From: a phage
Sequence record: PZ534511.1
DNA length: 64,000 nt
Strand: one strand, 5' to 3'
Below the pieces are notes generated by a model that was not told the DNA's origin, did not search any database, and was given only the letters and a program-made list of their open reading frames with translations. The position numbers and the translations under genes were made by a program. This document shows positions 29,819-39,035 of the stretch, piece after piece (the stretch's first letter is position 1; every line of letters begins with the position of its first letter).

Positions 29819-31801
29819 TTATTTGATGTTATTCTTTGTATCGATCAGTTCACGGTATTCAATCATAGCAGGAGTGTCCCAATATTTCAAGCCTACATGC
29901 TTCAAAAGTGGGTATTTCTTTTCCAATCTTGCAATATAGGCCTTCCCGCATTTAACTCGGTTGGCGATTAAGATTTTGGCACGATGATTTAGCTCACTGT
30001 GCTTCCACGCGGTGTTACCTTCCCACTTGTGGAAATGTGGCCGATAATTTCCAAAATCTTGCATGGGAATAATTTTCCCTAATTGTCTATACAGGCTGTC
30101 ATATGAAGTTTCATTTGCTGCGCGAGTCAGTAAGAATTTCCAAGCATCCTCTTTCAACAAATGTTCCACATTTTTCTCTGTAACATACTGGCAATCAGGA
30201 TCAGTCCAAAGCAGACGGGATTCTGATACCAGGTACAGGTCTTCCCCTTCAGGAATCTGGAGTGCCGCACGCACACGGTCATAATTTTGCTGGTAGATGT
30301 TACTCAGCTGTCCCAGCCAACAACTTCCACGTTGGATATCACCTTCATAAGGAATGCAGTGCTTAATCTTCTTGAACTCTGCCTTAGTAATACGTTCACG
30401 ACGGAAGTAACCATCCTTCTCAAGCTTTTTAACCCAATAACCTGGCTCGTAATGAGTTTTTGTTTCACCTTTCTTCGCAGGTCGGCGAGGGAGCTCTGAT
30501 AACAATTTGACAGTATCTGCAAAGAACGGATGGTGTGCCGCCTCTTTAAACTCTTTCACTAGATCCGTATTCCGGCAATAGAAAACGTTGCGTCCGGTGA
30601 TTTCGCTTAAATAGTTACACTTATTTCGGTTATATTTGCCATCTCCGTCGTTAAATACAAGGTATACACCTCGTAAGAACTCCGACTTTCCGTAACGAGC
30701 ATAGCCTATGCGGCCTTTATTTAAGCCTCCAGCGAAAATTTCACAATCGCCTAAGTCGCCAAGCCCTGTTTCTTCCCATCTGTCCCACATAAAATTCTTA
30801 CCGAAGATGTGCCCGAACACTCCACTGTTCTTCATCATCTCACGTGCTTCTGAGGATGTTTTTGCTGTCTCCAATTCCGCAACAACTTCTGCCCCACGAA
30901 GACGGATACCCTCTTTGACAAAAGCCTCCAGACGCTCTTGGAATCCACCATCGTCGTGCCCCTCTATGGTCCATTCGCGCCCAGGGTTAATATTGCAATC
31001 CCCGATAGGGATCTCTACACAGATTGCAGGGTAGTCTGTCAATGTTTCCAGAAACTTAGAGCGGTAAGGTTGGTGTCCCATCACCACACGGCTCTCATCA
31101 GAGCTGGTATAACCTTTCAGGATGGTCATTTTCCAACCATCCTTCTCGTAGTGATACTGCGCCTCAACCTTATCACCTTCCAGCATCTTACTGGTCATAG
31201 GGTCGGTAACGGTAAACGGAAACTTTGCATAGCGTAGGCATGACGCAATAGCAGTGCGATATTTCAGGACATGCTCTTTCTTAACATGGAACTGAACTTT
31301 TACCCCGTTGTGCTCTTCAGTCTTCCGCTCACGGATCTTGGTAACGTTTGGGATACCCTGATCCAAGAACAATAGATATGTGCTTTCAACACCATTGTGC
31401 ACACTGATAACATCGAAAGTGTCCACCATACTGAACGGAGCCTTTGAACCAACACCTTTATTACCTACCAGAGCGTTGCTGTTGCGCTTGGTTGACTCCC
31501 CGAGATTCATGAAAGTGTTGCGGACCATCTCTTCTGACATGCCCAATCCAACGTCCTGCACAAAGAAGTATGGTTCAAGGTCTGTAGGAGAGTGAATAAT
31601 GATCGGTACATCACCCCGTCCAGACTCAACATGGGAGTCCACGGCATTGAAGATTGGTTCACGGCAGCTTGCCAGCACCTTATCTTCGTAAATCCCTTTA
31701 ATGATTAGCCCAAAAGTCTCTTTGTTCAGAGAAATTGAGCCCCTGGTGACCTCCATATTCCCGGTTAGTACCGCTTTAGTTTCATTACTGTTTACAATCA
31801 T
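29819..31801 (-). CDS. GHKL/HATPase_c-domain protein, rIIA-like
   Basis: Bergerat-fold motifs NAVDSH (N box), QDVGLGMS (G1), GNKGVGSKAPF (G2) in the N-terminal third; 660 aa. Confidence 0.5.
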   Translation of the reverse strand: MIVNSNETKAVLTGNMEVTRGSISLNKETFGLIIKGIYEDKVLASCREPIFNAVDSHVESGRGDVPIIIHSPTDLEPYFFVQDVGLGMSEEMVRNTFMNLGESTKRNSNALVGNKGVGSKAPFSMVDTFDVISVHNGVESTYLLFLDQGIPNVTKIRERKTEEHNGVKVQFHVKKEHVLKYRTAIASCLRYAKFPFTVTDPMTSKMLEGDKVEAQYHYEKDGWKMTILKGYTSSDESRVVMGHQPYRSKFLETLTDYPAICVEIPIGDCNINPGREWTIEGHDDGGFQERLEAFVKEGIRLRGAEVVAELETAKTSSEAREMMKNSGVFGHIFGKNFMWDRWEETGLGDLGDCEIFAGGLNKGRIGYARYGKSEFLRGVYLVFNDGDGKYNRNKCNYLSEITGRNVFYCRNTDLVKEFKEAAHHPFFADTVKLLSELPRRPAKKGETKTHYEPGYWVKKLEKDGYFRRERITKAEFKKIKHCIPYEGDIQRGSCWLGQLSNIYQQNYDRVRAALQIPEGEDLYLVSESRLLWTDPDCQYVTEKNVEHLLKEDAWKFLLTRAANETSYDSLYRQLGKIIPMQDFGNYRPHFHKWEGNTAWKHSELNHRAKILIANRVKCGKAYIARLEKKYPLLKHVGLKYWDTPAMIEYRELIDTKNNIK

Positions 31802-32298
31802 TTATTGCGCTCCTTGTAGTAGATATGGCTCCCGAATTGAGCTGTCCTCTGCATCTTTTTTGCCCATTTCGGTCGTACTTTGGTTGTATGGTAGTGTGTT
31901 GCTCCACCTGTTATGTCCATAGCCATGTATGCAACATGGTTGTTATTATAGACCTTTAGAAGCATCTTTGCAAGACTTTTAGCGTGATCCCATGAATCTT
32001 TTTCTGTCACCTTAAAAGTTTTGCCGTGGTTTGTCCACGAAAACTGGTTAGGTTGGTAGACAATCTTTCTTATAGTGTCTGGGTATTTAGGGTGGGATTT
32101 CCTGTTTAGTGTGGCAAACCCAGATGCCAGCATACCCATCGTGCCATCTCCTCTAGCTTCCCTGTAGATATTGCATGCCAGAATGTTTTCCTTAGTATCT
32201 GATGGCTTGCAAGTATGATATACTTTTTGTTTTGGTGCTGCAACAACAGGCAGCGATAAAAGTGCGCTCAAAATAATAGCAAAGATCTTAATTTTCAC
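31798..32298 (-). CDS. SleB/CwlJ-family cell wall hydrolase with N-terminal signal peptide (candidate secreted endolysin)
   Basis: Signal-like N-terminus MKIKIFAIILSALLSLPVVAAP; motif NIYREARGDG..LNR typical of the SleB hydrolase family. Confidence 0.55.
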   Translation of the reverse strand: MKIKIFAIILSALLSLPVVAAPKQKVYHTCKPSDTKENILACNIYREARGDGTMGMLASGFATLNRKSHPKYPDTIRKIVYQPNQFSWTNHGKTFKVTEKDSWDHAKSLAKMLLKVYNNNHVAYMAMDITGGATHYHTTKVRPKWAKKMQRTAQFGSHIYYKERNK

Positions 32299-32330
32299 AA
32301 TGACTCCAAATAGAAAATCCCCGCCGAAGC
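32295..32330 (-). terminator. rho-independent terminator (minus strand)
   Basis: Minus-strand hairpin CCCCGCTTCGGCGGGG followed by ATTTTCTATTT. Confidence 0.55.
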
Positions 32331-32347
32331 GGGGGAGGTCTTAGAAA

Positions 32348-32776
32348 TTAATCGTAGTGTGCCAAAATCTCTCCATCGTTGCAAGTTCCCTCTACAAAGT
32401 TATGAAGATTCATGCACTCATCTTGATAGAAGAATTTACCGCTTTTCAGCCGTAGGCCAAACAACTCCGCATCTCCACGATGGCAAGCCTCTACAAGTTC
32501 ATAGATTTCATACGGCAACTCTCCGTCGTCATGGAAGAATCCAGCCTTATCGTTGACATAAATGAAGAAATAATCACTGCTATCGCAAGCGTCCAATATT
32601 TTAAACCAGACTTCATCTACATCTTTTTCTCGGATATCGATCACGCAAGTGGAGCTGCATTCGTACTCCTTCTCCGGCTCCTCGGTCAATACCACCAGGT
32701 AGTTTCCCCGCTTACCTACTTTAGCCATACAACCCCCCTTAAGCTTTAGCCAAAATGGCGCTAAACTCTTCACCAA
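32348..32776 (-). CDS. hypothetical protein
   Basis: Track ORF 142 aa. Confidence 0.45.
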   Translation of the reverse strand: MVKSLAPFWLKLKGGCMAKVGKRGNYLVVLTEEPEKEYECSSTCVIDIREKDVDEVWFKILDACDSSDYFFIYVNDKAGFFHDDGELPYEIYELVEACHRGDAELFGLRLKSGKFFYQDECMNLHNFVEGTCNDGEILAHYD

Positions 32777-33923
32777 ACTCTTTTACAATCTTCATCAGGT
32801 TTGGGTATGCTTTGATCAGCTGAGCAACAATCTTGTCACGCCCTTTACCGATAAGCAAGGCATTTCCTAAGGCATTAGGTTTCATCATCGCCATAAAGAC
32901 TGAGAATACAAAATCTCGGTTCTCGTCCTTGAAGTTTTCCCAAAGGAAATCGAGGAAGTTTGCCACGCAGCTGACAAGATCTTCGTCTGAGATACTTGCA
33001 TTTTCCATCATATTGCGAATAGCGATACAACCTTCAGATCCAAGAATCCACAAAATGTCTGGCTGCTTAGGACCTACGTATTCTTTGCAGCCACCTGCCA
33101 TAATCCGACCGATTTCCGGTAAATTACGTTTCTTGGTGTGGTAAGTCCAGATCTCTACCGCTGCAGTGTGACCAATAGCACCTTGTAGAAGAACACGGGC
33201 CATAGCGTCAGAAATAATACCGCTGTCAAAATCGTGCAAGATGTCAGATGCAGCAACCCAAGATCGTGGTGTGGCAAAAGATGGACAATTAATCTCAGCC
33301 ATAGCCTCATAATTATCAATAGCTGATGGAACTCTTTTCAGATACCCAATTACAGAGGAGTGAACCCCGTTGAGGAATGCGTAGTCCTCAATAAACACCT
33401 CTGCATTGCTTGTAACCTCTACAATGATAAAACGGTTAGCCAGAGGGGCTTCGAGCGCCGAAAGAACCGCACCATCTGTAGAACGGTTACCCGCAGCCAC
33501 AAAAACAGAACCTTTAGGGAATGCATAGGTGCCGCACTTGTGGTCAAGCATAATTTGCATTGCAACCTTTTGCAGGTAGTTATCTGCATGAGTGAGCTCA
33601 TCCAGAAAGATAATTCCGCTCCAGTCAGGATCCGCAGGCCAAAATTCTGGAATTGCAAACACTGTACGTGTAGTTCCATCCGCTTCTACAGGGATAGGTA
33701 GCCCAGATAAGTCGGCAGGATCTTTATCTGACAGTCGCACGTCAACAAGGTTGTCATCTCGCTCACCGAACATATTATCAGCGATCTGCTTCATCACCTG
33801 GCTTTTACCCACACCCATTGGTCCCAAAATTAGGACAGATCGGCTATGACGTTGGGCAAACTGAATAATAGCTGGCAACTCACGGACAGTGATTTGACCA
33901 CTTTCGAATACGTTTCTTGACAT
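32739..33923 (-). CDS. MoxR-like AAA+ ATPase
   Basis: Walker A ILGPMGVGKSQ; Walker B IIFLDELTHAD; size about 390 aa. Confidence 0.65.
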   Translation of the reverse strand: MSRNVFESGQITVRELPAIIQFAQRHSRSVLILGPMGVGKSQVMKQIADNMFGERDDNLVDVRLSDKDPADLSGLPIPVEADGTTRTVFAIPEFWPADPDWSGIIFLDELTHADNYLQKVAMQIMLDHKCGTYAFPKGSVFVAAGNRSTDGAVLSALEAPLANRFIIVEVTSNAEVFIEDYAFLNGVHSSVIGYLKRVPSAIDNYEAMAEINCPSFATPRSWVAASDILHDFDSGIISDAMARVLLQGAIGHTAAVEIWTYHTKKRNLPEIGRIMAGGCKEYVGPKQPDILWILGSEGCIAIRNMMENASISDEDLVSCVANFLDFLWENFKDENRDFVFSVFMAMMKPNALGNALLIGKGRDKIVAQLIKAYPNLMKIVKEFGEEFSAILAKA

Positions 33924-34192
33924 TAGTAAAAGTCCTCTACTTGTGTGTAAGTGTTTTCAAAGTTTTCCAAAACAGATATCACATCGAATCTGTCAATATC
34001 ATACGTGACTCTCCAGTTGTACGCAACCCTTTCTGCTGTTGCCTCTTCTGGCGCTAGTCGTCTGCTGGCATAAAAGAGTGTTGGAGTACACTTTCTTGCT
34101 TGCCCTCTAACTTTCCCATAATAATATCTGTGAATATCTTTGTCAAAATTTAACTCTTTTTCTGCACGAAGTTCATATTGCTGGTATAACAT
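33923..34192 (-). CDS. hypothetical protein
   Basis: Track ORF 89 aa. Confidence 0.4.
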   Translation of the reverse strand: MLYQQYELRAEKELNFDKDIHRYYYGKVRGQARKCTPTLFYASRRLAPEEATAERVAYNWRVTYDIDRFDVISVLENFENTYTQVEDFY

Positions 34193-34236
34193 CTCTACTA
34201 CTCCTTAAGCAGCATCCTTGCCGCCATTCCTGCCCA

Positions 34237-34617
34237 CTAAAATGCAGTCCGAATCCAGACAAGGTTCTTATCTGCCCAATCATAGAGGCAAGTCATTGCA
34301 CTATTGAATTGCTCACACGGAGGATAATCTTCTTCCATCTGGCGCATAGCAGAGCCTTGTGGGTAAAGCTCCCGTGCTGCAAACCACGCGTCGTAGTCAT
34401 CAACGGTGTCGAAGTAGTATACAACATCCTCTAACTCAGGATCGAACTTTGAACTATCAGGATCCAGTTGTTCAGGGAACTTGGAGCGTAACTTGCCAGC
34501 CACAATACTTGCCAACTCGCTAACATGCTTATTGTCCCACTCCACTAGCTTCCCGTCTTCAGTGATGCGTCCTAACCACTGATCATGAAGGTCAACTGTT
34601 GTCTTCCACTGAGCCAT
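34237..34617 (-). CDS. hypothetical protein
   Basis: Track ORF 126 aa. Confidence 0.45.
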   Translation of the reverse strand: MAQWKTTVDLHDQWLGRITEDGKLVEWDNKHVSELASIVAGKLRSKFPEQLDPDSSKFDPELEDVVYYFDTVDDYDAWFAARELYPQGSAMRQMEEDYPPCEQFNSAMTCLYDWADKNLVWIRTAF

Positions 34618-34619
34618 TA

Positions 34620-34877
34620 TCAGTCCACCTCTTCTTCTCGTTGTAGTTCAAGATACCCGTAGGTCTGGACATCTTGAAGGGTGTGGAACTCCCCCTCTGC
34701 CGCTAAGGCACGAACAACTTGGCACAAAACCTTATGAGGAACTTCATCCAAACCTAGATTCAGTGCAGGAAACACCTTATCTAAGTCAACAAAATAAACG
34801 AACTGTAGCTCACCAGCTTCAAAAGGTGTATCTTCAATAAACATCTTCTCGGCATTAGTCAAGATCTGCACTTTCAT
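34620..34877 (-). CDS. hypothetical protein
   Basis: Track ORF 85 aa. Confidence 0.4.
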   Translation of the reverse strand: MKVQILTNAEKMFIEDTPFEAGELQFVYFVDLDKVFPALNLGLDEVPHKVLCQVVRALAAEGEFHTLQDVQTYGYLELQREEEVD

Positions 34878-35254
34878 TATTCTACCTCCTCTTCTTTTTC
34901 TTCGGCATTAGTTTCATGGCTACCCCACTCGGGAGTTTCCACCTCGATAGTAAACTCACGCACTACACGGTAATTGCCCATGAAGCGCTCTACTTCGTCA
35001 AGGCTTATGGAGAGGCCATTGGCAACCAGGTCTGCAGCACCCTCTTCTACCAGGTAGTCCAGATTGGCTTCCAGAGCCTTAGGTTCAAACCCTGTCAATG
35101 CAATCAGATAACCTTCCCCTTCATCAGGGAGGACAATACAGCCCAATTGATTTTCTTTAAAAAGGCAGTGACCATCATTATTGATTGGGTGTTCATTGCA
35201 GTAAATAGCTGCACGATAAGTAACTTTAGACATCGGTAAGGTCTCCTTAGGCAA
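34877..35254 (-). CDS. hypothetical protein (probable start at MSKVTYRA, near 35233)
   Basis: Internal ATG preceded by AAGGAGACC RBS; its first codons lie within a 28 bp inverted repeat shared with 37072-37099. Confidence 0.45.
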   Translation of the reverse strand: MPKETLPMSKVTYRAAIYCNEHPINNDGHCLFKENQLGCIVLPDEGEGYLIALTGFEPKALEANLDYLVEEGAADLVANGLSISLDEVERFMGNYRVVREFTIEVETPEWGSHETNAEEKEEEVE

Positions 35255-35525
35255 TTGTCATTTTACATTCTTGAAATTTTAACACAAGACGGTGATTGTG
35301 TCTAGTGTCTAAAAAGATTTTTTCAACCATCAGGCACACGGTATAACCGTCCATCTTGTTGACAACAAAATCTCCAGGATGAGGGAGGATGTCTCCCGGA
35401 TTGGGGAAACATAGTCCACTCAGAAAGGCATCGTCAGTGGTGGACTTAATAGATTTCCACACACTGTCTGCCTGAACATGTTCACCGACGTAATATACAT
35501 TACCACATGCCTTCATCATAGTCAA
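35247..35525 (-). CDS. hypothetical protein
   Basis: Track ORF 92 aa. Confidence 0.4.
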   Translation of the reverse strand: MTMMKACGNVYYVGEHVQADSVWKSIKSTTDDAFLSGLCFPNPGDILPHPGDFVVNKMDGYTVCLMVEKIFLDTRHNHRLVLKFQECKMTIA

Positions 35526-36421
35526 ACCCTCGCATAAATTAAACTTGTATCAGTATACTTCTTTAATGGGTAAATATCCTGTCCATAGATGCAATCATTA
35601 AACACCTCATCTACCCAAAGGCTACACTTATATCCCATCATTTCTAAAACACCCATCTCTTCTTCGGTAAACTTATCACCGCTCTTGCAAGATGTCAATA
35701 CCTCATTCTGAACTCTTGCTACCTCGAAGCGGTTATTGGCAATATCGCTATTGGCGATCAAATACTCACCTAGAGGGTGTGCGGCATTAAAGATGCACAG
35801 CGGACGGCTGACGTAATAGTCTCCAGGTGTATAAAAATTGTTGAGGTCTTTCACTAGAACATTCTTATCAGTCACTTCATTTATAACATCATGCATATCG
35901 CACATCTTTATATGTTTGAGGATTCCATCCCCCATCACAAAATAAAAACTTGCTGAGACACTTTCGGCATAGATCTTACTAGATCCGTTGTAGTTGTATT
36001 TTACTCGGATGCTAACGGGGGTTTTTCCTGTCGCGTTAGCCATCATCCAAAGAAATGGCAGCTCATACTTCTCCTCTGAGGAAACAAAAGGTGAGGTAGC
36101 CAGAGATCGAAAACCTCCAGAGAAGTTGAAAGTTACAGAACCGCTCCGGCGGTATGATACCGCGTATTCTACTTTTATATCGACATACCCATTGGAATAG
36201 GTGTGTCCTTCATTATCTAAATATGTCCACTTATCAGACCCAGATACCAATCTACGCTCAATAACCTTCATCACTATAGGAATTAATGGGTTGGTACAAA
36301 CCGCTTTTGAAGTAGCTTTATCATCTAAAGCCTCGTAAATTGCAGAAAGGATGTCCCCAGCTGAAAGATTGGTTGTTATGTCCTGTTTCCACCGCGTACT
36401 AAAACTGTTAAGATTTGCCAT
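35522..36421 (-). CDS. hypothetical protein
   Basis: Track ORF 299 aa; RBS TAGGAGCAC; promoter TTGACT-17-TATAGT at 36452-36480. Confidence 0.5.
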   Translation of the reverse strand: MANLNSFSTRWKQDITTNLSAGDILSAIYEALDDKATSKAVCTNPLIPIVMKVIERRLVSGSDKWTYLDNEGHTYSNGYVDIKVEYAVSYRRSGSVTFNFSGGFRSLATSPFVSSEEKYELPFLWMMANATGKTPVSIRVKYNYNGSSKIYAESVSASFYFVMGDGILKHIKMCDMHDVINEVTDKNVLVKDLNNFYTPGDYYVSRPLCIFNAAHPLGEYLIANSDIANNRFEVARVQNEVLTSCKSGDKFTEEEMGVLEMMGYKCSLWVDEVFNDCIYGQDIYPLKKYTDTSLIYARV

Positions 36422-36451
36422 AAGTAAGTGCTCCTATGTTAGTTTTCTTTC

Positions 36452-36480
36452 GAATGGGTGCACTATATTGTGGAGTTAGA
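36452..36480 (-). promoter_or_regulatory. sigma70-like promoter (TTGACT-17-TATAGT), divergent partner of the 36504 promoter
   Basis: Read on the minus strand upstream of the 35522..36421 gene. Confidence 0.5.
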
Positions 36481-36497
36481 GTAAAGTCAACACGTTT

Positions 36498-37541
36498 TTG
36501 ATGTTGACATCTGTTGAGACAATTGATACGATTTCTTCACTTACAGAGCACGAGAGACGACTCATGAATCTTGAAAAATATTATACACCAGAAGAGTTAG
36601 AGCGCTTGCTCAAAAAATATAGACGCAAACAGAATAACGCACGGAAACGAGATATAGAGTTCGACCTGTCATGGGAAGAATACCTCCTATTTGGTAAAAA
36701 ACTTTTAGGAGATGGAGTATGCGACTATACCCTTATACCTTTTGACATGCACACAGATGAAAACGGGCTGGGGAATCCTTTCTACCCATCTCTGGAGCGG
36801 ATAGATGATGAAGGTCCTTATGCGGCTGATAACTGTTGTGTGGTGGGATTGAGATGCAACTCTCTAAAGGACTGTCTGGTAGATAAAAAGACTGCAGTCT
36901 TGATTAAAGACGAAACTGATCGAAAAATTGTCCAGCAGATGATGCTCCACCTGAGCGAAGAGCGTATGGAGAAATTGAAAGGTGATTATACTTTTGAAGA
37001 TTTCATCTTGCAATATGGAACGGAAGAGGATAAACTAGCACTCTTTGACGAAGAAGAGGAGGAAGATATGCTACCGATGTCTAAAGTTACTTATCGTGCA
37101 CCCAAGAAGCACATTTCCGACATTGTAAACGAGCCTATCACAGAAGAGATTGAAGAAATGACGCAACAGGTGCATGAAGAGGAAAAAGAGACTCAGGAGG
37201 TCGAAGAGGAGCTTACAGAAGAGGTTCCTGCACTACCTGATGATGTTGAGATTGCCAAAGCTTACACTTTCTATTGTCAAACGTTCTACGATGTAGGTAT
37301 GAAAGTTGATCTGTCATTCAGCCAATTTAAGAGTTCGTATATTCGCAAATGCTGTGCTTTAACTGGTGAACGTCTTGGAGCTGGACTTAAACCCCTGTTG
37401 GTGACCGACTGGAATAAAGGTTTCACTAAAGGAAACTTTATGGTAGTATCTCCAATTATGGAGAAAGCTATGACAGATCTTATGAAGACCACCCGCATGA
37501 CAATGACCGAGTTGGCAGGTATTTTCAAACACGTTAAATAA
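36498..37541 (+). CDS. protein with two tandem degenerate HNH/endonuclease VII-like domains (probable true start about 36564, MNLEKYY...)
   Basis: Internal duplication (DLSWEEY..GVCDYT.. and DLSFSQF..CCALTG..); CxxC..N..CN..K-like remnants; track start is TTG inside the promoter; contains internal MSKVTYRA start-like repeat. Confidence 0.4.
   Translation: MMLTSVETIDTISSLTEHERRLMNLEKYYTPEELERLLKKYRRKQNNARKRDIEFDLSWEEYLLFGKKLLGDGVCDYTLIPFDMHTDENGLGNPFYPSLERIDDEGPYAADNCCVVGLRCNSLKDCLVDKKTAVLIKDETDRKIVQQMMLHLSEERMEKLKGDYTFEDFILQYGTEEDKLALFDEEEEEDMLPMSKVTYRAPKKHISDIVNEPITEEIEEMTQQVHEEEKETQEVEEELTEEVPALPDDVEIAKAYTFYCQTFYDVGMKVDLSFSQFKSSYIRKCCALTGERLGAGLKPLLVTDWNKGFTKGNFMVVSPIMEKAMTDLMKTTRMTMTELAGIFKHVK
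36504..36532 (+). promoter_or_regulatory. sigma70-like promoter (TTGACA-17-TACGAT) driving the plus-strand island
   Basis: Hexamers read directly; overlaps the first codons of the over-extended track ORF. Confidence 0.5.
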
Positions 37542-37553
37542 TGACAGGGGCCA

Positions 37554-39035
37554 ATGGCCCCTTCTGGAGTTTTAATGGATAGCAGAAGTTCAGAAATCAT
37601 TGCCTCGCAGAAAGATGATGCCCTGAGAATGTTGCAGGCTGCACGTATGTATCTCCTTGAAAAGCTGCCGTTTTATGGCACACTACTGTCAGGGTTGCAG
37701 TTCGTAGAAAACCACACATGGTGCTCCACCATGGCAACCGACCATAAACGCATCTACTACAGCCCTGAGTTCATTATGGGGTTGGCGGATGAGCGTAAAA
37801 CCATTCTTAAAGCATCTCTGACTGACAAGCAGTTTGAGATGGCTGAGGTTTTCTATTCCCCAAAATCTGTGAAAGAGGTGGCCTTTCTTCTGTCACATGA
37901 GGTGGGGCATATTATCTGTGATCATCTGGTCCGTGGTAAAAGCTTTGAGCCGGAACTGTTCAATATTGCTTGTGATCACGTTATCAACACAGGTCTTGTG
38001 GTTGACTTTAGCAAGCCTCCTTGTGTTTTCTTCCCGAAGGGGAAAAGCACTGAGTTCGTAAAAGGTAAGCCTTTTGGCTTCTTAGCTAATTGCTACTGCG
38101 ACATGAGGTTTCATGGATGGATTGCTGAGAACGTCTATGCAGTTCTTGATAAACAAAGAGATCAGAATGGCGGTAAAAGTAAGAACGGTAAAGGTGAGAA
38201 CTCCCAAGGAGATAAACGACAAACCGATGATCACATGAGCGGGAACGGTGGCACTAGTGATGATCTTGGAAAGGCTATGGGGTATGATCAGCCGCAACCA
38301 GTAATCAGTCAATCTGACAAAGATCAGGCCATGCAGGACTCTGGTGACATGTTGGAAGCAGCAATGCAAGCTTCAGGAGGTCGTTGCCCCGAGGCGGTGC
38401 GCGAGTTTGTCAAAAACAGAGGCAAGCCTGTAATCAATTATATAGATATTATTAAGCAACGTATGTTATCTAAAAGAAAGGCTGAGTTAACCTACAGAAA
38501 ACCTGGTCGCCGATCTGGGTCTTTGACCACCACAATGCGAAAAGTTGGAGCTATAAACAAGAATCAACACGTTATTGTTCCTGGTCGTAATCCGGAAAAC
38601 ACTATAGATATTGTAGTGGCTTTAGACGTTTCTGGGTCGATCTCACAAAGAACTTTAAAGAAAATGTTCAATGAGATCACCGGGTTGTGCAATTTGTATA
38701 AAGAGTTTAAGGTTACTATGTTCTGTTGGTCAACGGAGGTTGGAGAGGTTAAAGTATACACTCGCGGTAACATCGATGAGATGATTAACTATGAGGTCCA
38801 CTCAACATGGGGCACAACAGCCGCCTGCGTGTTCGAGTATCTGGATGCTAACATACCGAATGCAAAAGATGTCATCGTCCTTACCGACCTCTACTTTGAG
38901 CATAACTTTGAACAAAAGGCTGTTGACAACAAGTGGAAAAAGTACGATACTTTATGGGTTCTCACCGAAGGGTATAATAAAAATTATATCCCGAGCTTTG
39001 GGAAAACTGTGGAATTAATCGAGTACGCTAAGTAA
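37554..39035 (+). CDS. VWA-domain protein with N-terminal HExxH metallopeptidase-like motif
   Basis: HEVGHIICDH motif near residue 115; MIDAS motif VALDVSGSIS in the C-terminal half. Confidence 0.6.
   Translation: MAPSGVLMDSRSSEIIASQKDDALRMLQAARMYLLEKLPFYGTLLSGLQFVENHTWCSTMATDHKRIYYSPEFIMGLADERKTILKASLTDKQFEMAEVFYSPKSVKEVAFLLSHEVGHIICDHLVRGKSFEPELFNIACDHVINTGLVVDFSKPPCVFFPKGKSTEFVKGKPFGFLANCYCDMRFHGWIAENVYAVLDKQRDQNGGKSKNGKGENSQGDKRQTDDHMSGNGGTSDDLGKAMGYDQPQPVISQSDKDQAMQDSGDMLEAAMQASGGRCPEAVREFVKNRGKPVINYIDIIKQRMLSKRKAELTYRKPGRRSGSLTTTMRKVGAINKNQHVIVPGRNPENTIDIVVALDVSGSISQRTLKKMFNEITGLCNLYKEFKVTMFCWSTEVGEVKVYTRGNIDEMINYEVHSTWGTTAACVFEYLDANIPNAKDVIVLTDLYFEHNFEQKAVDNKWKKYDTLWVLTEGYNKNYIPSFGKTVELIEYAK

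What the first reader, a model, noticed from the sequence alone, without database searches (positions are those of the whole stretch)
32739..39035. MoxR-like AAA+ ATPase and VWA/HExxH protein encoded on opposite strands around a divergent promoter region
MoxR ATPases (Walker A ILGPMGVGKSQ) usually act with a VWA partner. Here the partner candidate (MIDAS motif DVSGS plus an N-terminal HEVGH metallopeptidase-like motif) lies about 3.6 kb away on the other strand. The two are separated by small genes and a divergent promoter pair. The function of such a pair in a phage is unexplained.
Basis: partly seen in the sequence, partly recalled or inferred. Interest (0 to 1): 0.6.

Follow-up and report, generated by a model that had tools for sequence, protein, structure and literature searches.

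The report
Split phage MoxR ATPase / VWA-peptidase pair
These two genes are the rV5-phage copy of a two-protein module (an ATP-driven motor plus a metal-dependent docking and cutting protein) that many large virulent phages carry as neighbouring genes; it is already annotated, here it has been pulled apart by an inversion, and nobody yet knows what it acts on.

Summary
The window is an rV5-like Vequintavirus (98.7% identical to phage EdH4). ORF 32739-33923(-) is a MoxR-type AAA+ ATPase. ORF 37575-39035(+) is a DUF2201_N (HExxH, M48-like zincin) plus DUF2201 (VWA, complete MIDAS) protein. GenBank already labels them 'MoxR ATPase' and 'metallopeptidase with VWA domain'.

They are homologues of phage N4 gp24/gp25, core genes of all N4-like phages with no known function.

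In 127 fetched loci both genes occur together. These include N4, RaK2-like and Erwinia jumbo phages, PA5oct, Atu_ph07, S-TIM5, a 578-kb megaphage, environmental contigs and Campylobacterota chromosomes. The usual layout is ATPase then VWA gene on the same strand, with a median gap of 73 nt. Only Vequintavirus and Seunavirus have the split, divergent layout, which one inversion explains.

The ATPase motifs and MIDAS are conserved in essentially every copy (one or two substitutions among 174 and 119). HExxH is kept in almost all phage copies but lost in Campylobacterota copies.

Best reading: one ATP-driven remodelling and probably proteolytic machine acting early or mid infection on an unknown protein target. 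The partnership is well supported. Proteolysis and the target are inferred.

Not novel as an identification; moderately interesting as an uncharacterised, very widespread phage module.

The parts
32739..33923 (-). Gene for the MoxR-type AAA+ ATPase (394 aa; rV5 'MoxR ATPase', N4 gp24 family, phrog_1297)
   Evidence: ORF. phrog_1297 E 2e-110. 100% identical to the rV5 'MoxR ATPase'. AF2 pLDDT 85, with top PDB matches NorQ, CbbQ2 and CHU_0153. An HMM built from its alignment hits N4 gp24 at 1e-56.
33801..33824 (-). Walker A GPMGVGKS
   Evidence: Translation. G37, G39 and K40 are conserved in 174/174 homologues; S41 in 173/174.
33597..33611 (-). Walker B IFLDE. Sensor-1 N146, R164 and R220 lie further downstream in the gene.
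   Evidence: D108, E109, N146 and R164 are conserved in 174/174; R220 in 173/174.
37575..39035 (+). Gene for the VWA/zincin partner (486 aa; N4 gp25 family, phrog_1314, Pfam DUF2201_N + DUF2201). The longest ORF starts at 37554.
   Evidence: AF2 pLDDT 80. An HMM built from its alignment hits N4 gp25 at 2e-46.
37896..37934 (+). Zincin active-site helix HEVGHIICDHLVR (H108, E109, H112, H117, R120). Invariant D134 follows at 37974-37976.
   Evidence: The motif aligns with the M48 signature HExxHxxxxH in PDB 3c37 and with the minigluzincin MJ1213.
38172..38258 (+). Low-confidence Gly/Lys/Asp-rich linker inside the N-terminal domain (about aa 200-228), variable in length between relatives
   Evidence: pLDDT below 50 for residues 200-228. 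The region is rich in indels in alignment A1.
38592..39032 (+). VWA-like domain with a complete MIDAS: D351-x-S353-x-S355 (38625-38639), T414, D438
36422..36563 (.). Divergent intergenic region with back-to-back sigma70-like promoter matches. The leftward unit ends with the ATPase; the rightward unit contains the VWA gene.
   Evidence: PVP-SE1 annotates a promoter at the equivalent place.
37546..37562 (+). GC-rich hairpin AGGGGCCAATGGCCCCT between the upstream 325-aa gene and the VWA gene's ribosome-binding site. It is a possible attenuator or terminator.
   Evidence: Annotated as a terminator in phage Murica.
36564..37541 (+). Context only: 325-aa gene annotated 'anti-sigma factor' (phrog_3118). 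It is the first gene of the rightward unit, upstream of the VWA gene, and is not part of the module in other lineages.

Best explanation
The two genes encode the two subunits of one conserved phage machine, the N4 gp24/gp25 module.

Proposed working:
- The gp24-type MoxR AAA+ protein forms an ATP-hydrolysing ring.
- The gp25-type protein docks on the ring through its VWA domain.
- The VWA domain's MIDAS metal site captures an acidic residue of a target protein.
- The N-terminal M48-like zinc peptidase domain is brought onto the target.
- ATP hydrolysis then twists or stretches the partner and the bound target, so that the target is remodelled and, in the phage versions, most likely cleaved.

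In rV5-like phages the genes were separated by an inversion. They now sit in the two arms of a divergent, host-RNA-polymerase-type early transcription unit, so they can still be made together.

Status of each step:
- Shown: domain identities, conservation of catalytic residues, and obligate co-inheritance.
- Inferred: physical interaction, proteolysis, timing of expression, and the target. The target is unknown. Candidates are a host or phage protein linked to DNA or nucleotide metabolism, or to proteostasis.
For: Identity of the parts:
- DUF2201_N scores 100 bits and DUF2201 43.7 bits.
- The ATPase model's best PDB matches are NorQ (E 7e-8), CbbQ2 and CHU_0153.
- The N-domain profile's only PDB matches are weak. 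Ten of 12 are M48/minigluzincin peptidases aligned on the strand plus the HExxHxxxxH helix. Weak Pfam M48, SprT-like and PhageMetallopep hits point the same way.

Partnership:
- Among 80 IMG/VR loci found with the ATPase alone, 68 have the DUF2201 gene directly downstream (median gap 73 nt).
- Two of the 80 have the split layout.
- Nine of the 10 without a partner end within 200 nt of the ATPase.
- The pair is also present in N4, PVP-SE1, RaK2, PA5oct, Atu_ph07, S-TIM5, Aeromonas 4L372D, Erwinia pEa_SNUABM_47, A5-4, MinM2 and a 578-kb megaphage.
- It occurs in about 49 Campylobacterota loci.
- Across 18 lineages dereplicated at under 60% identity, pairwise identities of the two proteins correlate at r = 0.57, with 0 of 2000 Mantel permutations reaching that value.

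Selection on activity:
- ATPase core motifs are conserved in 173-174 of 174 copies.
- MIDAS residues are conserved in 118-119 of 119 copies.
- HExxH is intact in all viral copies examined except Atu_ph07 and one metagenomic protein (P0027).

Context:
- Hsp20 lies directly upstream in S-TIM5.
- ClpX, ClpS, ClpP and Hsp20 surround the pair in the megaphage.

Mechanistic precedent: NorQD cryo-EM shows a VWA 'finger' in the MoxR pore and ATP-driven stretching of the partner. The authors presume this is general for AAA+/VWA pairs (PMC13036017).

Expression: sigma70-like divergent promoter matches. N4 gp24/25 are middle genes (PMC4193335).
Against: - No experiment on any member of this family was found.
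- Every characterised MoxR-VWA pair is a chaperone or insertase, not a protease.
- The catalytic Glu and the first His are replaced (N-[ASGC]-x-x-H) in all Campylobacterota chromosomal copies, while H112, H117, R120, D134 and MIDAS stay invariant. Peptide-bond hydrolysis is therefore not essential to the family as a whole.
- The window ATPase itself is below all Pfam AAA cutoffs.
- The interaction was not modelled.
- The promoters are consensus matches only.
Confidence: 0.5

Rival explanations
1. Non-proteolytic chaperone or metal-insertion system. As in NorQD, CbbQO, CoxDE or CobST, the ATPase-VWA pair would remodel a client enzyme to assemble it or load a metal. The client might be a phage or host nucleotide-metabolism or replication enzyme. 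The zincin-like domain would serve as a metal-binding or client-binding module rather than a protease.
For: - All characterised MoxR-VWA pairs work this way (PMC7159879 section 8; PMC13036017).
- The catalytic Glu is dispensable in a large bacterial clade, whereas H112, H117, R120 and D134 are invariant in 119/119 copies.
- Pyrimidine dNTP genes recur within a few genes of the pair: N4 dCTP deaminase as the next gene; dUTPase next in RG-2014; ThyA in RaK2, Erwinia and the environmental lineage; ThyX in S-TIM5; dCMP deaminase in 4L372D.
- Glutaredoxin or thioredoxin genes lie nearby in Atu_ph07 and pv27.
Against: - Phage copies keep a full HExxH almost without exception, which suggests selection for catalysis.
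- In rV5 and PVP-SE1 no nucleotide-metabolism gene is nearby.
- No conserved third (client) gene accompanies the pair in viral or bacterial loci.
- The dNTP-gene proximity may only reflect membership of the same early/middle gene block.
Confidence: 0.27
2. Virion assembly or maturation factor. The pair would act on structural proteins, by analogy with the MoxR/VWA pair implicated in tail development of the archaeal virus ATV.
For: - The ATV precedent is listed in PMC7159879.
- In RaK2 and Erwinia jumbo phages the pair directly follows a run of structural genes.
- In roseophages a second structural module lies next to the gp24/25 homologues (PMC4193335).
Against: - N4 gp24/25 are middle genes, not late genes.
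- In this window the genes sit among small early-type ORFs behind sigma70-like promoters, far from structural genes.
- The PA5oct study itself lists several 'virion-unrelated enzymes' among its detections.
- Neighbourhoods are inconsistent between lineages.
Confidence: 0.1
3. The two proteins work independently in rV5-like phages. The physical split would reflect functional uncoupling, with the ATPase serving another partner and the VWA/peptidase acting alone.
For: - The genes are 3.65 kb apart on opposite strands and in different operons.
- Distant MoxR-like ATPases can have other neighbours, as in Vibrio pv27 and in the Sulfurovum loci with an unknown 462-aa gene instead.
Against: - Both genes are retained together, with all motifs intact, in Vequintavirus records (115 of 122 matching records cover at least 80% of the whole 6.3-kb region) and in Seunavirus despite the split.
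- They are the only genes of the region conserved out to A5-4, Certrevirus-like and Aeromonas phages.
- Their divergence is correlated.
Confidence: 0.05

Closest known systems
[quoted passage not shown]
   Same: Homologous on both proteins: HMMs built from the rV5-type alignments hit gp24 at 1e-56 and gp25 at 2e-46, and N4 gp25 matches DUF2201_N at 4e-86. Same domain content. Function unknown in both (PMC4193335, PMC7650795).
   Different: In N4 the genes are adjacent and co-directional, 167 nt apart, and are followed by dCTP deaminase. Here they are 3.65 kb apart on opposite strands. Identity is only about 22-27%. The rV5 ATPase has an extra C-terminal helical region (394 aa against 352 aa).
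NorQ/NorD and CbbQ/CbbO (MoxR AAA+ plus VWA chaperone pairs)
   Same: These are the best structural matches of the ATPase. Each is a two-gene MoxR + VWA/MIDAS architecture, and they offer a presumed general 'finger-in-pore' ATP-driven remodelling mechanism.
M48 / minigluzincin metallopeptidases (BepA, HtpX-type, Ste24, MJ1213 projannalysin)
   Same: They share the edge strand plus the HExxHxxxxH active-site helix. They are the only class of PDB protein repeatedly picked up by the N-domain profile.
   Different: All matches are below significance (E 0.075-1.8). The third ligand here is probably Asp134 rather than a distant Glu. The domain is fused to a VWA domain and paired with an AAA+ protein.
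vWA-MoxR ternary conflict systems (Kaur et al. 2020, PMC7159879)
   Same: A MoxR + vWA core that sometimes has peptidase effector domains fused to the vWA protein. Proposed substrate capture by MIDAS and ATP-driven release.
   Different: Those systems are defined by a third component (VMAP, FtsH or a beta-propeller) and occur in multicellular bacteria. No conserved third gene was found here, and there were no PADLOC hits.
Cobaltochelatase and Mg-chelatase motor pairs (CobS/CobT, BchI/BchD), including phage cobS
   Same: AAA+ of the same broad clade plus a VWA/MIDAS partner. These pairs also occur in phages.
   Different: A relative of the ATPase matches the CobS-type PHROG only weakly (phrog_249, 7e-7, against phrog_1297 at 4e-106). 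There is no CobN/BchH subunit, and the partner's N-terminal half is a zincin-like domain.

Membership tests
MoxR-type AAA+ ATPase (helix-2-insert clade) | Intact Walker A, Walker B, sensor 1, arginine finger and sensor 2 | tested here: met
   GPMGVGKS, FLDE, N146, R164 and R220 are invariant or nearly so in 174 homologues.
MoxR-type AAA+ ATPase (helix-2-insert clade) | Beta-hairpin insert in helix 2 and a pre-sensor-1 hairpin | tested here: met
   The AF2 model has strands 75-81 and 84-90 between beta2 and the Walker B strand, and a short hairpin at about 129-134 before strand 138-145. This rests on a predicted model only.
MoxR-type AAA+ ATPase (helix-2-insert clade) | Significant match to the Pfam MoxR-type models AAA_3 / AAA_5 | tested here: inconclusive
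   The window protein scores 16.7 bits on AAA_5 against a cutoff of 22. Homologues at 31-36% identity carry AAA_3 + AAA_5.
MoxR-type AAA+ ATPase (helix-2-insert clade) | Closest solved structures are MoxR proteins | tested here: met
   Foldseek top hits are NorQ at 7e-8 (TM to target 0.62-0.68), CbbQ2 (6l1q) and CHU_0153 (2r44).
MoxR-type AAA+ ATPase (helix-2-insert clade) | Genomic coupling to a VWA/MIDAS protein | tested here: met
   127 fetched loci carry both genes, and 68 of 80 viral loci have them adjacent. In this window they are coupled but not adjacent.
MoxR-type AAA+ ATPase (helix-2-insert clade) | Hexameric ring with ATPase activity | not testable with these tools
   Needs biochemistry or a multimer model.
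DUF2201-type VWA/metallopeptidase (Pfam PF13203 + PF09967; N4 gp25) | Both Pfam domains above their gathering scores | tested here: met
   100.0 bits against a cutoff of 23.2, and 43.7 bits against 26.4.
DUF2201-type VWA/metallopeptidase (Pfam PF13203 + PF09967; N4 gp25) | VWA fold with a complete MIDAS (DxSxS...T...D) | tested here: met
DUF2201-type VWA/metallopeptidase (Pfam PF13203 + PF09967; N4 gp25) | HExxH on a zincin active-site helix, with a downstream ligand | tested here: inconclusive
   The motif HEVGHIICDHLVR...D134 is present and conserved in phages. The topology is three strands followed by two helices. Only weak M48/minigluzincin matches were found, and there is no direct structural match.
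DUF2201-type VWA/metallopeptidase (Pfam PF13203 + PF09967; N4 gp25) | Zinc binding and peptidase activity | not testable with these tools
   No family member has been characterised.
N4 gp24/gp25 module | Homology of both proteins to N4 gp24 and gp25 | tested here: met
   HMM hits at 1e-56 and 2e-46. RaK2 homologues are annotated gp24-like and gp25-like.
N4 gp24/gp25 module | Adjacent, co-directional genes (ATPase first) | tested here: not met
   Here the genes are divergent and 3.65 kb apart. PVP-SE1 and locus L004 show the same derived layout.
vWA-MoxR ternary conflict systems | A conserved third component (VMAP, FtsH or beta-propeller) next to the pair | tested here: not met
   No conserved third gene across lineages. 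No PADLOC match.
CobS/CobT-type chelatase motor | Best match to CobS/CobT families, and presence of a CobN-type subunit | tested here: not met
   Only a weak phrog_249 match by a relative. NCBIfam gave no chelatase hit. No CobN-type gene is annotated near the pair in the records examined.

The most novel reading that the evidence does not exclude
The gp24/gp25-type pair is a previously unrecognised class of two-piece ATP-dependent protease. A MoxR ring would drive a VWA-tethered M48-like zincin, and MIDAS would select the substrate. Large virulent phages of many lineages would use it as a near-universal early or middle function to cut a specific host or phage protein, for example a proteostasis, replication or immunity factor. 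Campylobacterota would have domesticated a catalytically dead version as a pure remodeller.
Probability: 0.25. Interest if true: 0.7.

Novelty: already known. Interest (0 to 1): 0.4.

Why it matters
The identification itself adds nothing new. rV5, Murica, LL12 and PVP-SE1 records already call these genes MoxR ATPase and VWA metallopeptidase, and N4-like phage papers list the homologues as core genes.

What remains open, and worth an experiment, is the function. This is one of the few non-structural, non-replication modules shared by podoviruses (N4-like), myoviruses (rV5-like), several jumbo phage groups and megaphages. No member has been studied.

This analysis gives three concrete handles:
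- The two genes are obligate partners even when split, so they should be studied together.
- Phage copies keep the peptidase site while bacterial Campylobacterota copies lose it. That gives a natural separation-of-function contrast.
- E. coli phages with genetic tools (EdH4, N4) carry the module, so knock-down and point-mutant tests are feasible now.

Tried and rejected
- NCBIfam and PADLOC gave nothing useful for either protein.
- A sequence search of the PDB gave only P-loop-level ClpB/ClpC hits for the ATPase and nothing for the partner.
- The search for related loci with the VWA alignment failed because it had no conserved stretch. I used the ATPase alignment instead.
- The CRISPRi-ART paper that uses EdH4 and N4 has no data on these genes.
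- The PA5oct paper uses different gp numbers, so the 'ESI-MS/MS' note on the ATPase homologue could not be interpreted further.
- I tested whether the perfect 29-nt inverted repeat between the two genes is an active inversion switch. None of 119 related genomes has the inverted junction.
- Defence-system and chelatase readings were considered and rejected (see the membership table).
- Homology between the small intervening ORFs and the genes flanking the pair in A5-4 or Certrevirus-like phages would have pinned the inversion breakpoints. None was found.
- One viral locus (L034) has 1,067 nt downstream of the ATPase without a detectable partner. This was not explained.
Full report
**What the window is.** The 6.3-kb region is 97.5-98.7% identical to about 120 rV5-like phages (Vequintavirus: EdH4, Murica, LL12, FFH2 and others). 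In those records the two genes are annotated 'MoxR ATPase'/'ATPase' and 'metallopeptidase, contains von Willebrand factor domain'/'VWA-like domain containing protein'. Some RefSeq/PHROG-derived records wrongly call the second gene 'HNH endonuclease'. The ATPase is 100% identical to the rV5 protein.

**Check of the observation.** ORF 32739-33923(-) (394 aa) and ORF 37554/37575-39035(+) exist.
- Walker A GPMGVGKS at 33801-33824
- Walker B IFLDE at 33597-33611
- HEVGH at 37896-37910
- DVSGS at 38625-38639

The ATG at 37554 lies inside a GC hairpin (37546-37562). The ATG at 37575 has a GGAG 6 nt upstream and is the start used in the curated records, so I take 37575 as the start. The start codons are 3,651 nt apart on opposite strands.

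Between them lie six leftward ORFs and one rightward 325-aa ORF annotated 'anti-sigma factor'. These flank a 142-nt intergenic region (36422-36563) with back-to-back sigma70-like hexamer pairs whose -35 boxes form a palindrome. These are consensus matches only. PVP-SE1 has an annotated promoter at the equivalent site. The ATPase start overlaps the stop of the preceding 89-aa ORF (TAATG), which suggests translational coupling within the leftward unit.

**What the ATPase is.**
- Pfam AAA models all fall below their cutoffs for this sequence.
- It matches phrog_1297 at 2e-110.
- A database search finds relatives of about 360 aa at 31-36% identity (E about 1e-44) that carry AAA_3 (the MoxR model) and AAA_5.
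- An AlphaFold model (pLDDT 85) has the helix-2 beta-hairpin insert and a short pre-sensor-1 hairpin.
- Its best PDB matches are NorQ (E 7e-8), CbbQ2 and CHU_0153, all MoxR proteins.
- Walker A/B, N146, R164 and R220 are conserved in 173-174 of 174 homologous ORFs.

**What the partner is.**
- Pfam gives DUF2201_N ('putative metallopeptidase domain', 100 bits) and DUF2201 ('VWA-like domain', 43.7 bits).
- The MIDAS residues D351, S353, S355, T414 and D438 are invariant.
- The N-terminal part has three short strands, then a long helix carrying H108-E109-x-x-H112-x-x-x-x-H117-x-x-R120, then a helix with invariant D134.
- A low-confidence Gly/Lys/Asp-rich linker (residues 200-228) interrupts this N-terminal part.
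- A profile of 13 diverse N-domains finds no significant PDB match. However, 10 of its 12 sub-threshold hits are M48/minigluzincin peptidases (MJ1213, 3c37, BepA, Ste24), aligned over the strand and the HExxHxxxxH helix.
- Individual members also give weak Pfam M48, SprT-like or PhageMetallopep hits at the same place.

The HExxH is therefore very probably in a zincin fold, but this is not proven.

- I used only the ATPase alignment to fetch 80 IMG/VR loci, then scanned them with an HMM of the partner.
- In 68 loci the DUF2201 gene sits immediately downstream on the same strand (median gap 73 nt).
- In 2 loci (an rV5-like contig and a 53%-identical 147-kb contig) it is about 3.6 kb upstream on the other strand.
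- Of the 10 without a partner, 9 end within 200 nt of the ATPase.
- Most of these loci belong to one syntenic environmental lineage, so I also checked independent isolates.

| Phage | Layout |
|---|---|
| N4 gp24/gp25 | adjacent |
| RaK2 ('gp24-like', 'gp25-like') | adjacent |
| Erwinia pEa_SNUABM_47 | adjacent |
| Atu_ph07 | adjacent |
| S-TIM5 | adjacent |
| Aeromonas 4L372D | adjacent |
| 578-kb megaphage contig | adjacent |
| A5-4 | same strand, homing endonuclease inserted between |
| PA5oct | same strand, homing endonuclease inserted between |
| MinM2 | same strand, 2.2 kb apart |
| PVP-SE1 | split and divergent, as here |

- About 49 Campylobacterota genomic loci also have the pair.
- In all, 127 fetched loci carry both genes.
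- Across 18 lineages with under 60% ATPase identity, the pairwise identities of the two proteins correlate at r = 0.57, with 0 of 2000 Mantel permutations reaching that value. Shared genome phylogeny contributes to this figure.
- At the far edge of ATPase similarity (Vibrio pv27, E 5e-10) the neighbour is not a DUF2201 protein. The coupling is therefore specific to the gp24-like subfamily. This probably explains why tblastn finds more ATPase-positive (813) than partner-positive (625) phage records.

**Origin of the split.**
- In the Certrevirus-like locus L005 the order is SleB(-) ... ATPase(+) VWA(+).
- Here it is SleB(-) ATPase(-) ... promoter region ... VWA(+).
- Relative to both flanking markers only the ATPase-bearing block has flipped.
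- One inversion would explain this, with one breakpoint between the two genes and the other beyond the divergent promoter. This is an inference.
- The intervening small genes have no detectable homologues in the unsplit relatives, so the breakpoints cannot be mapped.
- The ATPase and the partner are the only genes of the region conserved across all these relatives.

**What is known about function.**
- N4-like phage papers list gp24 (AAA+ ATPase) and gp25 (vWFA) among the 14-odd core genes, give the function as 'unknown', and class them as middle genes (PMC4193335, PMC7650795).
- Searches for DUF2201, COG3864, the Pfam accessions, 'vWA-MoxR' with 'phage', and gp24/gp25 found no functional study.
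- The CRISPRi-ART study that uses EdH4 and N4 did not target these genes.
- For mechanism the best precedent is NorQD. [quoted passage not shown] The authors presume this mode is general for AAA+/VWA pairs (PMC13036017).
- Kaur et al. summarise the shared logic: MIDAS captures a peptide of the substrate and the ATPase releases it in an altered conformation (PMC7159879).

**Clues to the role.**
- Active-site census. All phage copies examined keep HExxH except Atu_ph07 (HQxxH) and one metagenomic protein (HAxxH). All Campylobacterota chromosomal copies have N-[ASGC]-x-x-H, lacking the first His and the catalytic Glu. They still keep H112, H117, R120, D134 and MIDAS. Catalysis therefore seems to be selected in phages, but it is not the family's only function.
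- Proteostasis neighbours. Hsp20 lies directly upstream in S-TIM5. In the megaphage the pair sits among ClpX, Hsp20, ClpS and ClpP.
- Pyrimidine dNTP neighbours. Such genes lie within a few genes in at least six lineages. This may only reflect a shared early/middle gene block. It is not true in rV5 or PVP-SE1.
- No third component. No conserved third gene accompanies the pair, and there is no match to known defence systems.

**Conclusion.**
- The pair is one two-subunit machine. I rate this partnership at about 0.85.
- Its most likely mode is ATP-driven, MIDAS-directed remodelling with cleavage by the zincin domain. I rate the whole statement at about 0.5.
- The main rival is a non-proteolytic chaperone or metal-insertion role (about 0.27).
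- Virion assembly (about 0.1) and functional independence (about 0.05) are less likely.
- As an identification this is already in the public annotation. As biology it is an uncharacterised, unusually widespread phage module that is directly testable in EdH4 or N4.

Noticed in passing
window 35210-35238 and 37072-37100: A perfect 29-nt inverted repeat (TACCGATGTCTAAAGTTACTTATCGTGCA). In one arm it encodes the start codon and first 8 codons (MSKVTYRA) of the 118-aa ORF 34877-35233(-). In the other it encodes an internal in-frame LPMSKVTYRA of the 325-aa 'anti-sigma' ORF. Recombination between the arms would swap C-terminal halves in frame. The predicted inverted junction is absent from all 119 related genomes, so the repeat is conserved but shows no sign of being an active switch.
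   Followed up: yes
window 36486-36508: The two -35-like boxes of the divergent promoter candidates form a palindrome, GTCAACACGTTTTTGATGTTGAC. This could be a shared operator.
   Followed up: no
window 37546-37562: A GC hairpin (AGGGGCCAATGGCCCCT) sits directly after the 325-aa gene and 3 nt before the GGAG of the VWA gene. It contains the alternative ATG at 37554. It may attenuate read-through or modulate translation of the VWA gene.
   Followed up: partly
L086-L163 (Campylobacterota genome loci), e.g. L161 10912-12249 and L113 10885-12078: Chromosomal copies of the partner in Sulfurovum, Sulfurimonas, Sulfuricurvum and Arcobacter have lost the first His and the catalytic Glu of HExxH, but keep H112, H117, R120, D134 and MIDAS. 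Some loci carry two paralogues.
   Followed up: partly
L131 8559-10948 (Sulfurovum sp. CS9 chromosome) and about 30 similar loci: A second class of Campylobacterota loci has the gp24-like ATPase preceded by an unknown 462-aa ORF with no Pfam match and no DUF2201 gene. An 858-aa Peptidase_M14 gene is often upstream.
   Followed up: partly
L176 5785-6279 (phage A5-4); L166 7406-8902 (PA5oct): Homing-endonuclease genes are inserted exactly between the ATPase and the partner gene in two unrelated phages.
   Followed up: no
L170 62-10591 (578-kb megaphage contig): The pair is embedded in a proteostasis cluster of ClpX, Hsp20, ClpS and ClpP, with ribosomal protein S21 nearby. The ATPase there has an insertion of about 110 aa in the helix-2 insert region and LEEF in place of LDEL at Walker B.
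   Followed up: partly
public records under the VWA gene: phrog_1314, and hence many RefSeq records including N4 gp25, label this VWA/zincin protein 'HNH endonuclease'. No HNH signal was seen in Pfam. This looks like a propagated misannotation.
   Followed up: partly
one search hit list (MG0656xx records): Sixteen records named 'Campylobacter phage' with host C. jejuni are 97-98% identical to E. coli rV5-like phages over this region. The host label looks doubtful.
   Followed up: no
window 29819-32298: Downstream of the ATPase unit lie a SleB-like cell-wall hydrolase (31798-32298) and rIIA (29819-31801), after a terminator-like hairpin at 32319-32334. N4 also has rIIA/rIIB about 3 kb beyond gp25.
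   Followed up: no
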